A DNA stretch of 64,000 bases, from the NCBI RefSeq assembly GCF_009914755.1, contig NC_060947.1; one strand, written 5' to 3'. Of the stretch, positions 9,284-46,580 are shown piece after piece. Source of the stretch: the human T2T-CHM13v2.0 reference genome, Homo sapiens. The notes under the pieces are model-generated. The model was given only the letters and a program-made list of their open reading frames with translations. It made no database searches and was not told the DNA's origin. How positions within the stretch are numbered: position 1 is the stretch's first letter; each line of letters opens with the position of its first letter. A program made the translations under genes and the position numbers.

Positions 9284-9926
<643 letters not shown>

Positions 9927-9958
9927 TTGACTACTATTTTAAGTATACGAATATTTTG

Positions 9959-10231
9959 GGCCAGGCGCGGTGGCTCACTTTGGGAGGCCGAGGCGGGCGG
10001 ATCGCAAGGTCAGGAGATCGAGACCATCCTGGCTAACACGGTGAAACCCCGTCTCTACTAAAAATACAAAAAATTAGCCAGGCGTGGAGGCGGGCGCCTG
10101 TAGTCCCAGCTACTCAAGAGGCTGAGGCAGGAGAATGGCGTGAACCTGGGAGGCAGAGCTTTCAGTGAGCTGAGATTGCACCACTGCACCCCAGCCTGGG
10201 CAACAGAGCGAGACTCCGTCTCAAAAAAAAA
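9959..10231 (+). mobile_element. AluY with a 17-bp deletion near the 5' end
   Basis: AluY diagnostics 'gagatcgagaccatcctggctaacacgg', 'gagaatggcgtgaacc'; TSD AAGTATAC(G/A)AATATTTT at 9941-9957 and 10232-10248. Confidence 0.95.
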
Positions 10232-43700: not shown

Positions 43701-44135
43701 CTATTGAAATAAGATTAACATTAACTTTAGGTTGTGTGTAAATTAAGATTTTAATTGTGACCCACAAGGCAGCCACTGAAACAATTAAAAATATAGAGTA
43801 AAACCAACAAAAATGAATCAAAATAATACAGTAACAATATTTAACACAAAAAAGACAGCAGTTGAAGAGCTGAGAGAAAAATATACCTTATATAACACAA
43901 ATAGGGAAAAGACAGTAGTAAAAATCTTCCTTGTCAGCAAATACATTACATGTAAATTTTCTAGACATCCCCAATCAAAAGTCAGAGATTGGAAGAAGGT
44001 ATAGGAAAAACATGATCCAATTATATATTATCTACAACATACTCACTTTAGATTCAAAGAAATAAGTTGAACATGAAAAAACATTAAACTTCCATGAAAT
44101 AATAAAAAAAAGCTTGAGTGACTATACTATCAGAC

Positions 44136-44490
44136 TGTGATGGTTAATACTGAGCATCAACTTGATTGGATTGAATCCAATCAAGTGTGTGTTTTCAGGG
44201 TGTTGACAAAGGAGATTAACAACATTTGAGTCAGTGGGCTGGGAAGGCAGACCCACCCCTAATCTGCTGGGCACAATCTAATCAGCTGCCAGCGAATATA
44301 AAGCAGACAGAAAAACATCAAAAGGTGAGACTGGCCTAGCCTCCCAGCCTTCATCTTTCTCCCATGCTAGATGCTTCCTGCCCTCAAACAATGGACTCCA
44401 AGTTCTTCAGTTTTGAGACTCGGGCTGGCTCTCCTGCTCCTCAAGCTTGCAGACAGCCTATTGTGGGACCTTGAGTTTATTAATACTTAA
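44136..44490 (+). mobile_element. MLT2A (HERV-L LTR, MLT2A1-like), 3' end missing
   Basis: 'tgtgatggttaatactgag...gagtcagtgggctgggaaggcagacccac...gcttgcagacagcctattgtgggaccttg'. Confidence 0.9.
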
Positions 44491-45036
44491 TATAATATTA
44501 TATTAATATAATATATATTAATATATTATATTAGTATAAATATATTTAATGAATATTTTTATATTTTTAAAATATATTTAAAAATATATTTTAAAAATAT
44601 ATTTTATAAATGGAAATATATTATATATTTATATATTATATTAATAAATTAATATAATATAATATATTAATAAATTAATTTATTAATATATTATATTATA
44701 TAATCATATATGATATATAAAATTATATTAATATTATATAATATATACAATATATTATATTATGTAATCATATATGATATATAAAATTATATTAATATTA
44801 TATAATATATAATATTAATATATTACATATAACACAAATATATAATATATAATATATTAATTAATATATTATTTTAACATAAATATATAATATATTTCTA
44901 TTTATAAAATATATTTTTAATATATTTCAAAAATATAAAATATTCATAAAAAATATAAATATAATTATATTAATATATTAATATATATTACATTAAGTAT
45001 TAACTTAATAAACCCAAGGTCCCACAATAGACTGTC
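44452..45036. repeat. Palindromic AT-rich repeat (PATRR-like), 585 bp
   Basis: Left end 'gacagcctattgtgggaccttgagtttat' pairs with right end 'ataaacccaaggtcccacaatagactgtc'; the AT-rich arms also pair; perfect 50-bp palindrome at 44652-44701. Confidence 0.92.
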
Positions 45037-45064
45037 AGAAACATAATGCAATTTCTCTATCTCT

Positions 45065-46075
45065 TCATCTCTCTAGATAACAGTTATTTAATCTTGTTTA
45101 TTCTTTTCCGAGAGCTATTTCTTGGCTACATTGATCCTTTCTATTGTTTTTGTACCTCAGTTTTATTCATTTCTTCTCCAATTTTAGTTTTTGTTTTCTT
45201 CTGCTAGCTTTGGCATTGGTTTACTCTTATTTTTCCACTTCCAGCAGGTACACATTTAAATTGTTAATTTGATATATTTCTAACTTCTTGAAGGCATTTT
45301 TCACTAGAAACTTTCCTCTTAATACTGCTTTAGCTGCATTCCAGGGATTTTAGTAAGTTGTATCCCTATTTTCATTAGTTTCAAATAAATTTTGACTTCT
45401 TCCTTAATTCAGATGTTCACCCAGGATTTATTCAGGAGCAAGTTTTTAAAATTTCCATGTATTTGGATAGTTGTATGGGATCTTCTTGATATTGATTTCT
45501 ATTTTATTGTACTGTTGTTCAAGAGTGTGTGTAGTGATAGTTTTTTCCTTTTTTAAAAAACTTTCTTCAGCCTCACTTTATAATTGAGAGTGTGGTGGAT
45601 ATTAGAATGTGTTTTGTGTATGGACAAGAATAATGTATATTCTGTGGTTGCTGGGTGGAGTGTTCTGTAGATGTCTATTAGGCCCAATTGTTCAAGTGTT
45701 GAAATTACGTCCAGAATTTATTTGTTAGTTTTCTGCCTCAATGATCTATCTAACGCTGCCAGTCAGGTGTTAACGTCTCCCATTATTATTGCTTAGTTTT
45801 CAGTCTTTTTGTGAAACTTGTTTCATGAATCTGGGTACTCCAATGTTGGGTGCATATTTATTTAGGACAGCTAAGTCTTCTTGTTGGATTGTACCATTCT
45901 TTATCATTATGTAATGACGTTTTCTGTTTTTGTTAATTTTTATGTGTTTAAAGTCTGTTTTGTATGATATAAGAATAGTGATTCTTGCTCTTTTTTGCTT
46001 TCCATTTGCTGCATGGTAGATCTTTCTTCGTTCCTTTACTTTGAACCTGTGGGTATCATTATGTATGAGATGGGT
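45065..46075 (-). mobile_element. L1P/L1PB ORF2 (EN-proximal) fragment
   Basis: 'aatgtatattctgtggttgctgggtggagtgttctgtagatgtctattagg...tgaatctgggtactccaatgttgggtgcat'. Confidence 0.85.
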
Positions 46076-46079
46076 GTCA

Positions 46080-46580
46080 TTATGGGGTAATCACTCTAGT
46101 CATTACATTATGATATACGGAACTCTGTTTTAGCAGATCGAAGAGAGATATTTGAAATGAGAGAGGTTATCCTGCTGTCTTTGGAGAAGCAAACAACTAT
46201 GTCGTGAACTGTTTACAGAGGGAGTCCTGTGGCAAGAACCTGAGAGTTGAGAGTGGTCCCTGGCTGACAACTACAAACCAAACAATCAAACATACAAACA
46301 ACAACAAAGGAACAACAACAAAAAAAAAACCTTTGGAACTTCTGTTCCATAACTTCAAGAAAAGGAATTCTGCGAACAACCAGAATGGGTTAGAAAGCAG
46401 TTCTGTTCTAGTCAAGCCTCCCAGTGAGGACACGGCTGACCATGAAACCCTGAGCACAAAACACAGATAAGCAATGGGTGAACTCATTATCCATGGGAAT
46501 TGTGTGATGATAGTAAGTTCGAGTGTTTGTAAGCCACTAAGTTGATGGTGACGTGTTACACAACAATGAAAAACAACTTC
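46080..46580 (+). mobile_element. MLT1E/F-like LTR
   Basis: 'gaagcaaacaactatgtcgtgaactg...ggctgacaac...aattctgcgaacaacc...taagccactaagtt'. Confidence 0.7.

What the first reader, a model, noticed from the sequence alone, without database searches (positions are those of the whole stretch)
44452..45036. 585-bp palindromic AT-rich repeat (PATRR-like) formed by fold-back of an MLT2A LTR
Seen: the last GC-containing ~30 bp of the LTR (gacagcctattgtgggaccttgagtttat) reappear reverse-complemented 585 bp away (ataaacccaaggtcccacaatagactgtc). The AT-rich arms inside also pair, for example atgaatatttttatattttt...ataaatggaaatatattatatatttat against the reverse complement of about 44879-44947. This gives imperfect arms of ~190 bp around an almost pure A/T core. 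The normal LTR 3' end is absent, the upstream + strand L1 does not visibly resume, and a different minus-strand L1 begins instead. Established: GC-clamped AT-rich palindromes of this size, such as PATRR11 and PATRR22, extrude cruciforms and mediate recurrent translocations. Inference: the (TA)n tract of the MLT2A LTR seeded a fold-back repair event, creating a possibly uncatalogued PATRR from a retroviral LTR.
Basis: partly seen in the sequence, partly recalled or inferred. Interest (0 to 1): 0.8.

Follow-up and report, generated by a model that had tools for sequence, protein, structure and literature searches.

The report
Decayed AT-rich inverted repeat from LTR
A real but worn-down 585-base AT-rich inverted repeat on the human X chromosome, made long ago when part of an old retroviral LTR was copied backwards at its TA repeat; it resembles the palindromes behind recurrent translocations but is too imperfect to act like them.

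Summary
A self/reverse-complement alignment picks out exactly 44452-45036. It is the strongest inverted repeat in the 64-kb window (score 505, next 238, median 32).

Anatomy: a left arm of 181 bp and a right arm of 158 bp, with 145 matches, 10 mismatches and 9 indels. They flank a 246-bp AT-only core with no symmetry above shuffles.

The left arm is colinear with an ERVL/MLT2-type LTR up to its TA microsatellite. The right arm is an inverted copy that ends sharply against an unrelated minus-strand L1. The LTR 3' end is missing.

Fold-back or template switching at the TA tract is supported by other copies of the same LTR. One of 40 sampled copies carries a younger and larger palindrome centred on the same tract, and 6 of 40 carry small ones against 0 of 40 controls.

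It fails the defining PATRR features, which are near-perfect symmetry and no spacer. The hairpin-versus-duplex cost is +137 kcal/mol here. PATRR22 and PATRR8 from the same assembly give +10.9 and +33.2.

Verdict: an old quasi-palindromic AT-rich repeat, a new member of a known kind, of modest interest.

The parts
43727..44136 (+). Old, highly diverged L1 fragment (5' part of ORF2, endonuclease region). The LTR was inserted into it and it ends at the LTR start.
   Evidence: Multicopy: 353 first-look candidates, of which 40 were scored at 69-79% identity. Two of 7 fetched paralogues (L023, L021) carry L1 endonuclease coding sequence in register. This places window 44136 near ORF2 residue 76. Direct protein searches with this fragment found nothing.
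44137..44495 (+). 5' ~360 bp of an ERVL/MLT2-type LTR, up to its TA microsatellite. The last ~45 bp of the LTR are missing.
   Evidence: 40 scored genomic copies at 85-94% identity, most aligned up to query position 113, some to 119 (window 44492-44498). L024 aligns to 44136-44492. Same-strand pairs of the LTR 16-mer lie about 6.1-6.4 kb apart. An integrase core domain lies upstream of one such 3' copy. The 3' end probe is not found within 2 kb.
44452..44632 (+). Left arm, 181 bp. It consists of an LTR-derived GC-containing clamp (44452-44483) and the AT-rich arm.
44633..44878 (.). AT-only core or spacer, 246 bp, with no symmetry about the main axis. It holds a perfect 50-bp palindrome at 44652-44701, 67 bp off the main axis. 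A tandem array of period 64 (44615-44894, 4.4 copies) runs through it.
   Evidence: Core halves score 89 inverted, against shuffles 84.2 +/- 7.3. Perfect palindrome list. Tandem repeat finder.
44879..45036 (-). Right arm, 158 bp: an inverted copy of the left arm, including 30 bp of LTR body.
   Evidence: 145 matches, 10 mismatches, 29 gap columns in 9 gap events against the left arm. Identity is 93.5% over aligned bases and 78.8% with gaps. K2P is 0.068.
45037..45058 (.). Junction, 22 bp that I could not assign to either side.
   Evidence: Arm homology ends near 45036-45041. L1 paralogue alignments start at 45059 at the earliest.
45059..46090 (-). Unrelated minus-strand L1 ORF2 fragment. It has lost its own 3' part at the junction.
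   Evidence: 3019 first-look candidates, of which 40 were scored at 75-81% identity. 45803-46090(-) matches human L1 ORF2 protein residues 43-129 at E 4e-29. It runs uninterrupted across the site where the left L1 carries the LTR. It has no protein-level similarity to the left flank.

Best explanation
This is an old inverted duplication. It is not a working device.

Origin (inferred). A solo ERVL/MLT2-type LTR sat inside an old plus-strand L1. The TA microsatellite near the LTR's 3' end had already grown into an AT-rich tract. A break or a stalled fork in that self-complementary tract let the 3' end fold back, or let the nascent strand switch to the complementary template. About 180 bp of upstream sequence was then copied in reverse: the AT tract plus 30 bp of LTR body. 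The new end was joined to a distant piece of DNA, now the minus-strand L1. The LTR 3' end and the rest of the plus-strand L1 were lost.

Later decay (partly shown). The arms picked up 10 substitutions and 9 indels. The centre was remodelled by tandem duplication.

Behaviour today (inferred from published rules plus energies computed here). In duplex DNA, the 520-bp stretch of 96% AT should melt under negative supercoiling rather than extrude the whole cruciform. Only the perfect 50-bp palindrome at 44652-44701 is a plausible small cruciform. In single-stranded DNA, during lagging-strand synthesis or resection, the arms can pair into a long imperfect hairpin with a branched 246-nt loop. The realistic consequences are fork slowing, slippage and length polymorphism. 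Recurrent translocation is not expected.
For: Structure shown.
- Arms and core are measured.
- The left arm is colinear with other LTR copies up to the TA tract.
- The right arm keeps 6 bases that other copies have and the left arm has lost. Both arms share a variant after the clamp that is not seen at that position in any of the 40 sampled copies. The arms are therefore copies of each other, not two independent LTRs.
- Arm homology stops sharply, and the LTR 3' end is absent.
- The two flanks are different L1s in convergent orientation.

Mechanism supported by parallels, in an unselected sample of 40 copies of the same LTR.
- The TA site is a microsatellite hotspot.
- 6 of 40 copies have inverted arms of 18 nt or more there, against 0 of 40 control stretches (Fisher p 0.026).
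- Two of these, L046 and L065, invert LTR-specific sequence.
- One copy, L043, is a large palindrome centred on the tract, with arms 98.7% identical over 303 bp.

Low cruciform potential.
- The two halves are 77.1% identical.
- Only 166 of 245 predicted pairs cross the main axis.
- The cost, MFE minus half the duplex energy, is +137 kcal/mol. PATRR22 gives +10.9 (98.7% identity, 293 of 293 pairs). PATRR8 gives +33.2. Both were located in the same assembly with published primers.
- A 9-bp spacer plus 4 mismatches abolishes extrusion of PATRR22 (PMC1851657, passages).
- Asymmetric PATRR11 alleles, with mean loop 41 bp and 95.7% match, are computed to resist extrusion and to denature instead (PMC3834812, passages).

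Still a strong single-strand fold: z -16.6.
Against: - No outgroup or second human haplotype was available. The ancestral state, the age and the size of the deletion are therefore inferred.
- Fold-back repair of a break and replicative template switching cannot be told apart from the product.
- If the event made a perfect palindrome, the present asymmetric core needs later remodelling. The 64-bp tandem array shows some remodelling, but not that it explains all 246 bp. Alternatively the event left a spacer from the start.
- The 22 bp at the junction are unassigned.
- Several of the 6 small palindromes in other copies are built from TG/CA or TA microsatellite. Such sequence forms inverted symmetry easily, so the family-level enrichment is weaker than the count suggests.
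- The energies use ViennaRNA DNA parameters, not the mfold values of the papers. Only comparisons within my own pipeline are valid.
- No experiment on this sequence exists to my knowledge.
Confidence: 0.7

Rival explanations
1. It is a genuine, uncatalogued PATRR. The whole element extrudes a cruciform in vivo and is a hotspot for palindrome-mediated translocation or insertion, at least on some haplotypes.
For: - Size 585 bp and 92% AT, with non-AT-rich ends.
- Very strong single-strand fold, z -16.6.
- Such loci are length-polymorphic, and the assembly shows one haplotype only. PATRR8 and PATRR11 have symmetric and asymmetric alleles.
- It is not in the list of known PATRRs in the 2016 review (passages only).
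Against: - It fails the defining features: a 246-bp asymmetric core, halves 77% identical, 9 indels in the arms, and a cost of +137 kcal/mol against +10.9 and +33.2 for real PATRRs.
- Much smaller defects abolish extrusion and translocation.
- Arm divergence (K2P 0.068) indicates a long, quiet persistence.
Confidence: 0.05
2. There was no fold-back. Two independent LTR copies, or an inversion breakpoint, happen to face each other across a TA-rich tract.
For: The LTR family is abundant: 988 exact hits of one 16-mer. Opposite-strand copies a few kb apart do occur: one pair 4 kb apart among the 100 hits listed.
Against: - Right-arm homology to the LTR stops after about 30 bp instead of running on into the LTR body.
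- The AT-rich arms share idiosyncratic sequence far above shuffles (143 against 75 +/- 7.7). TA tracts of independent copies, by contrast, all differ.
- The arms share a derived variant after the clamp.
- The right L1 is intact across the LTR insertion site of the left L1, so a simple inversion of one element is excluded.
Confidence: 0.05
3. It is an assembly artefact: a chimeric fold-back read, or a collapse in an AT-rich tract.
For: Palindromic AT-rich DNA is hard to clone, amplify and sequence (PMC4940405, passages).
Against: - The arms differ by 10 substitutions and 9 indels, and the core is asymmetric. An artefactual fold-back would give identical arms.
- The same assembly resolves PATRR22 as a 595-bp palindrome with arms 98.7% identical.
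- Reads could not be inspected here.
Confidence: 0.02
4. The symmetry is a by-product of low-complexity TA-rich sequence and a chance 30-bp match.
For: TA-rich DNA is self-complementary by nature. 138 inverted pairs are reported within 1.7 kb, and the core shows only shuffle-level symmetry.
Against: - None of 300 dinucleotide shuffles reaches the observed inverted score, for the arms or for the inner halves. The direct comparison is at shuffle level.
- Non-TA marker bases pair up across the axis.
Confidence: 0.01

Closest known systems
PATRR22, PATRR11 and PATRR8 (palindromic AT-rich repeats at recurrent translocation breakpoints)
   Same: Several hundred bp long. Over 90% AT in the interior. 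Less AT-rich ends that act as clamps. Probably born by inverted duplication. Strong predicted hairpin.
   Different: Real PATRRs are nearly perfect and spacerless. In the same assembly PATRR22 has halves 98.7% identical with no gaps and a cost of +10.9 kcal/mol. PATRR8 has 87.9% and +33.2. This element has 77.1%, a 246-bp asymmetric core and +137. No translocation is known here.
Asymmetric PATRR11 alleles (AS-PATRR11)
   Same: AT-rich inverted repeats with a loop and imperfections. Published calculations say they denature rather than extrude, and they rarely give translocations.
   Different: Those alleles have a mean loop of 41 bp and a 95.7% match. This element is worse on both counts, and it is at another locus with another origin.
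AT-dinucleotide-rich sequences of common fragile sites (such as FRA16C)
   Same: The AT+TA dinucleotide fraction is 0.63 here, against 0.66 quoted for the FRA16C element. Flanks have 0.18. Branched secondary structures are predicted in single strands.
   Different: The element that was shown to create fragility is 3.4 kb long. The published folding threshold of 7 consecutive 300-nt segments below -40 kcal/mol is not reached here: 4 segments, two of them mostly LTR body. The longest pure TA run is 6 bases.
Xq27.1 AT-rich palindrome near SOX3
   Same: An AT-rich palindrome on distal Xq in a gene-poor region. It is known to trigger insertions (PMC9233990, passages).
   Different: That one lies 82 kb from SOX3 and is described as human-specific. 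According to the hub's gene table, the nearest gene listed after this window is a pseudogene about 94 kb beyond the element, and none is listed before it. Arm divergence here points to an old event. They are different loci.
Palindrome at G000:C1:55610948-55612133 (locus L043), same LTR family
   Same: An inverted duplication centred on the TA tract of the same kind of LTR, with an AT-rich centre and no LTR 3' end found within 2 kb.
   Different: It is much younger and larger. Arms are 98.7% identical over 303 bp and include most of the LTR body and about 200 bp of unique flank. The right arm has an internal deletion of about 139 bp.

Membership tests
PATRR | Several hundred base pairs long | tested here: met
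   585 bp. PATRR22 is 595 bp and PATRR8 is 453 bp in the same assembly.
PATRR | More than 90% AT | tested here: met
   92.0% over 44452-45036. 96.0% over 44484-45004.
PATRR | Nearly perfect palindrome (arm identity about 98% or more in translocation-prone alleles) | tested here: not met
   Halves are 77.1% identical: 242 matches, 28 mismatches, 44 gap columns. The best arms are 93.5% over aligned bases and 78.8% with gaps. Published values: 98-100% for PATRR8 M and S alleles and 98.4% for long PATRR11.
PATRR | No spacer; central symmetry | tested here: not met
   The 246-bp core has inverted similarity at shuffle level: 89 against 84.2 +/- 7.3. The only long perfect palindrome (50 bp) lies 67 bp off the axis.
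PATRR | Small free-energy cost of hairpin relative to duplex | tested here: not met
   +137 kcal/mol, against +10.9 (PATRR22) and +33.2 (PATRR8) in the same pipeline. Published range for PATRR11 alleles shown in the passage: 8.1-26.5 with mfold.
PATRR | Found at breakpoints of constitutional translocations, with breaks at the centre | not testable with these tools
   No variant or patient data are available here. Xq27 does not occur in the 2016 review's text (0 occurrences).
AT-dinucleotide-rich sequence (fragile-site type) | Very high AT/TA dinucleotide content over more than 250-400 bp | tested here: met
   0.63 over 521 bp, against 0.18 in flanks. The paper quotes 0.66 for the FRA16C element.
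AT-dinucleotide-rich sequence (fragile-site type) | At least 7 consecutive 300-nt segments folding below -40 kcal/mol | tested here: not met
   4 consecutive segments, computed with ViennaRNA DNA parameters rather than mfold.
Fold-back / template-switch inverted duplication | Two arms in inverted orientation that are copies of each other, with a sharp outer boundary on the copied side | tested here: met
   Shared derived variant.
Fold-back / template-switch inverted duplication | Loss or displacement of the sequence that followed the break point | tested here: met
   LTR 3' end not found within 2 kb. The plus-strand L1 does not resume within 5 kb. An unrelated minus-strand L1 abuts the right arm.
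Fold-back / template-switch inverted duplication | Ancestral, unduplicated state seen in an outgroup | not testable with these tools
   No primate genomes are held. The assembly has no relatives in the collection (header).
ERVL / MLT2-type LTR | Retroviral LTR: many dispersed copies, and paired same-strand copies flanking retroviral genes | tested here: met
   988 exact hits of a 16-mer. Four same-strand pairs 6.1-6.4 kb apart among the 100 hits listed. Integrase core domain (E 2e-10) upstream of one 3' copy.
ERVL / MLT2-type LTR | Assignment to subfamily MLT2A by a repeat library | not testable with these tools
No Dfam, Repbase or RepeatMasker is available.

The most novel reading that the evidence does not exclude
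The TA microsatellite near the 3' end of ERVL/MLT2-type LTRs may be a recurrent, genome-wide seed of inverted duplications. Hundreds of dispersed copies would then form a standing source of AT-rich palindromes of all ages. These would range from decayed relics like this one to young, nearly perfect ones like the chr1 example with arms 98.7% identical. Some could be polymorphic and unstable in living humans and would be uncatalogued PATRR-like hotspots. For this X-linked locus itself, the bold version is that other haplotypes carry a more symmetric allele that does extrude; I put that alone at about 0.04.
Probability: 0.2. Interest if true: 0.55.

Novelty: new member of a known kind. Interest (0 to 1): 0.3.

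Why it matters
For this locus, very little follows. It is a gene-desert relic that should not behave like PATRR11 or PATRR22. Saying so prevents a false entry in a list of translocation hotspots.

Two things are of some use. First, the locus preserves the whole anatomy of an inverted duplication born in a microsatellite: donor sequence, copied arm, sharp junction and lost distal piece. It is a clean natural example of how AT-rich palindromes arise.

Second, the same event recurs at the same tract in other copies of the LTR family, once as a young large palindrome on chromosome 1. This suggests that a defined class of retroelement microsatellites feeds palindrome formation. With complete assemblies this can now be counted genome-wide and across haplotypes. 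I found no paper that describes it: the search for 'MLT2' with 'palindrom' gave 8 papers, 7 of them listed. None was on this topic by title, and I read passages of one.

Tried and rejected
- Genome-wide search for the LTR 16-mer and its reverse complement a few hundred bases apart. I used the plain 16-mer instead, which lists only 100 of 988 hits, so no whole-genome count of LTR-centred palindromes was possible.
The sample stayed at 40.
- My first test for an inverted clamp in the 40 copies (30-mer, threshold 16) found none and missed L043, which scored 15. Searches corrected this.
- A first version of that script used a 16-mer three bases out of register and found nothing.
- I tested the idea that the two L1 flanks are one element split by an inversion. 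It was rejected. The right L1 runs uninterrupted across ORF2 residues 43-129, which include the LTR insertion point of the left L1 (about residue 76). The two flanks share no detectable protein similarity.
- A predicted reverse-complement LTR 3' end near 46270 is not there. That stretch looked to me like another interspersed repeat, not identified.
- Pfam found nothing in 5 L1 fragments of the window. phmmer against solved structures found nothing meaningful for the left-flank fragment (best E 0.81).
- Literature: no mention of Xq27 in the PATRR review. The palindrome catalogue of hg38 allows only 4 mismatch pairs, so it cannot hold this element as a whole. Its supplementary tables were not opened, and they might list the 50-bp perfect palindrome.
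- A search for FRAXD gave only listings and was not pursued.
Full report
WHAT IS THERE. The window is T2T-CHM13 chrX:142476001-142540000, so the element lies at chrX:142,520,452-142,521,036. In a scan of the whole window in 1.5-kb steps this is the top inverted repeat. Its score is 505, the next is 238 (a pair of inverted Alu fragments), and the median is 32. It is also the only block of 100 bp or more with at least 92% AT.

IS IT MORE THAN CHANCE. TA-rich DNA is self-complementary by nature, so I tested the AT-only parts apart from the GC-containing clamp.
- The AT-only arms (44484-44632 against 44879-45004) score 143 in inverted orientation. 300 dinucleotide-preserving shuffles give 75.1 +/- 7.7 (max 112). 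The direct orientation gives 79.
- The inner halves give 218, against 148 +/- 9.2 (max 173).
- The rare non-A/T bases mirror each other: 5 G and 2 C in the left half, 3 G and 11 C in the right half.
- As single-stranded DNA the 595 bases fold to -132 kcal/mol, against -64.7 +/- 4.05 for 100 shuffles (z -16.6).

ANATOMY.
- The left arm 44452-44632 (181 bp) and the right arm 44879-45036 (158 bp) align with 145 matches, 10 mismatches and 29 gap columns in 9 gap events. Identity is 93.5% over aligned bases and 78.8% with gaps. K2P is 0.068.
- The best stretch is 47 nt at 96%.
- Between the arms lie 246 bp of almost pure A/T (44633-44878). The two halves of this core are no more complementary than shuffles: 89 against 84.2 +/- 7.3, and direct 108.
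- The core holds a perfect 50-bp palindrome at 44652-44701, 67 bp off the main axis. An array of period 64 bp (44615-44894, 4.4 copies, 79% matches) runs through it.
The element is therefore an imperfect inverted repeat with a long AT spacer.

WHERE THE ARMS COME FROM.
- The sequence from 44137 is an LTR. A 121-base query ending in the clamp finds 40 scored copies at 85-94% identity (963 first-look candidates).
- A 16-mer from the clamp occurs 988 times exactly: 497 forward and 491 reverse, with no hits to the reversed control. Four same-strand pairs about 6.1-6.4 kb apart occur among the 100 hits listed.
- An integrase core domain lies just upstream of one such 3' copy (E 2e-10).
- This fits an ERVL/MLT2-type LTR. 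I could not check the subfamily name.
- In other copies the clamp is followed by about 30 more LTR bases, then a TA microsatellite, then about 45 bp of LTR end.
- The window's left arm is colinear with those copies up to the microsatellite (most alignments run to query position 113, some to 119).
- The LTR end is absent. A 42-base probe taken from copy L002 scores 10 of 42 within 2 kb downstream. It is found (score 24 or more) in 28 of 40 sampled copies, at 45-349 bp from the 16-mer.
- The right arm, read in reverse, carries the same LTR bases. It keeps 6 bases that other copies have and the left arm lacks.
- Both arms share a variant directly after the clamp that none of the 40 sampled copies shows there.
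- To the right, similarity to the LTR stops within a few bases of 45036-45041.
The right arm is thus a copy of the left arm, not a second LTR.

FLANKS.
- The left flank is an old multicopy sequence (353 first-look candidates; 40 scored at 69-79% identity).
- Two of 7 fetched paralogues carry L1 endonuclease coding sequence in register with it. This places the LTR insertion near ORF2 residue 76.
- Direct protein searches with the window's own left flank failed. That identification therefore rests on transitivity and on my recall of L1.
- The right flank is a minus-strand L1. 45803-46090(-) matches human L1 ORF2 protein residues 43-129 at E 4e-29. Paralogue alignments cover 45059-46078.
- The right L1 runs uninterrupted across the point where the left L1 is split by the LTR, and it has no detectable similarity to the left flank. 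It is a different element.
- Its own 3' part, which should lie to the left of 45059, is missing.
- The plus-strand L1 does not resume within 5 kb (sensitivity is low for such old repeats).
- The 22 bp at 45037-45058 are unassigned.

HOW IT AROSE (INFERENCE). The product has four marks of a fold-back or template-switch inverted duplication started in the self-complementary TA tract: an upstream segment copied in reverse; a centre in a TA tract; a sharp outer junction to foreign DNA; and loss of what used to follow. The AT-rich parts of the arms share specific non-TA features, so the tract had already grown to about 150 bp before the event. Break repair and replication switching give the same product, and I cannot separate them.

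With a recalled neutral rate of about 1e-9 per site per year, K2P 0.068 gives roughly 30 million years. The error is very wide: 10 differences in 155 sites, in unusual sequence, with possible arm-to-arm conversion.

PARALLELS IN THE SAME LTR FAMILY. I fetched the first 40 of the 988 exact 16-mer hits in chromosome order. This sample was not chosen for any property of the TA site.
- The site is a microsatellite hotspot (TA, TG/CA, GA and mixtures). Its longest AT-rich block is 119 bp in the sample, against 540 bp in the window.
- Scanning 270 bp at the site for inverted arms of 18 nt or more (at most 1 mismatch, at least 3 G/C, loop up to 100) finds 6 of 40 copies. Control stretches 1 kb upstream give 0 of 40 (Fisher p 0.026).
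- Four of the six are largely microsatellite-built. Two, L046 and L065, invert LTR-specific sequence next to the tract.
- One copy, L043 on chromosome 1, is a large palindrome centred on the tract. Arms 1500-1802 and 2383-2685 are 98.7% identical over 303 bp. The arms continue through the LTR body, with about 139 bp missing from the right arm. The AT-rich centre is 216 bp.
- My first screen missed L043 because of a threshold.
- Two further copies among the best BLAST hits, L003 and L007, carry long AT-rich expansions at the same site.
They suggest it is a repeated process. The sample is small, and TA repeats in general were not used as a control.

DOES IT WORK LIKE A PATRR. [quoted passage not shown]

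For a like-for-like comparison I located PATRR8 and PATRR22 in the same assembly with the published flanking primers (PMC4255720, passages). I ran one pipeline on all three.
- PATRR22: 595 bp. Halves 98.7% identical with no gaps. 293 of 293 predicted pairs cross the axis. MFE minus half the duplex energy is +10.9 kcal/mol.
- PATRR8: 453 bp. Halves 87.9% identical. 213 of 213 pairs cross the axis. Cost +33.2.
- This element: 585 bp. Halves 77.1% identical. 166 of 245 pairs cross the axis. Cost +137.

Published experiments and calculations show that far smaller defects are disabling.
- A 9-bp central spacer with 4 mismatches stops extrusion of PATRR22 and stops its instability in E. coli (PMC1851657, passages).
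- Asymmetric PATRR11 alleles rarely give translocations (PMC3197554, passages).
- Those alleles are computed to lose to denaturation at all physiological superhelix densities. Their mean loop is 41 bp and their match 95.7% (PMC3834812, passages).

On each of these measures this element is worse. I therefore predict melting of the AT tract rather than full cruciform extrusion in duplex DNA. At most, a small cruciform could form at the 50-bp perfect palindrome.

In single-stranded DNA, spacing and up to 25% divergence matter much less (PMC10164571, abstract only). Hairpin formation during replication or resection therefore remains plausible.

By composition the element resembles the AT-dinucleotide-rich sequences of fragile sites: an AT+TA fraction of 0.63, against 0.66 quoted for the FRA16C element. 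It is six times shorter than the element shown to cause fragility. It reaches 4, not 7, consecutive segments below -40 kcal/mol. Its longest pure TA run is 6 bases. From my recall of the WRN and microsatellite-instability work, which I did not read here, long uninterrupted TA runs are what is cleaved, so I would not expect a signal of that kind.

WHAT IS KNOWN.
- It is not the Xq27.1 palindrome. That one lies 82 kb from SOX3 and is called human-specific (PMC9233990, passages). The hub's gene table lists no gene before the window, and after it only a pseudogene about 94 kb beyond the element.
- Xq27 does not occur in the PATRR review.
- The hg38 palindrome catalogue allows 4 mismatch pairs and reports 718 palindromes over 200 bp (PMC7680136, passages). 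This element cannot be in it as a whole. I did not open its supplementary tables.
- Quasi-palindromic AT-rich repeats are already recognised as a class of fork-collapse sites (cited in PMC6765107, passage; the primary paper was not read).
- A search for 'MLT2' with 'palindrom' gave 8 papers, 7 of them listed. None was on this topic by title, and I read passages of one.

VERDICT. The functional label is not: this is an old, decayed quasi-palindromic AT-rich inverted repeat, a new member of a known kind. The most interesting by-product is the recurrence of the same event at the same LTR microsatellite elsewhere, including a young large palindrome on chromosome 1.

Noticed in passing
L043 1500-2685 (G000:C1:55610948-55612133): An independent, much younger palindrome centred on the TA tract of another copy of the same LTR family. 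The arms are 98.7% identical over 303 bp and continue through the LTR body and about 200 bp of unique flank. The AT-rich centre is 216 bp with its own symmetry. The right arm lacks about 139 bp. The LTR 3' end is not found within 2 kb. This locus is a better candidate for present-day instability than the assigned one.
   Followed up: partly
L046, L065, L041, L053, L067 (TA site of sampled LTR copies on chromosome 1): Small inverted duplications at the LTR's TA microsatellite. L046 and L065 invert LTR-specific sequence (arms 24 and 29 nt). L041, L053 and L067 are built from TG/CA or TA repeats. Counting L043 as well, 6 of 40 copies have arms of 18 nt or more, against 0 of 40 control stretches.
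   Followed up: partly
L003 and L007 (G000:C6:61.73 Mb and 57.50 Mb): Two copies of the same LTR carry AT-rich expansions of several hundred bp at the same TA site, made of tandem units. In L007 the upstream flank seems to start again after the AT block, which suggests a tandemly duplicated unit.
   Followed up: no
window 9785-10078: Two Alu fragments in inverted orientation about 35 bp apart. This is the second strongest inverted repeat in the window (self/reverse-complement score 238, 51% AT). Closely spaced inverted Alu pairs are a known unstable motif.
   Followed up: partly
window 46080-46580: A stretch with an internal A-rich simple repeat follows the minus-strand L1. It looked to me like another interspersed repeat (LTR-like by recall), and I did not identify it.
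   Followed up: no
L024 (G000:C4:75415129-75418317): A paralogue of the left-flank L1 also carries a copy of the same LTR family about 110 bp further along the L1. I take this as coincidence and did not examine it further.
   Followed up: no
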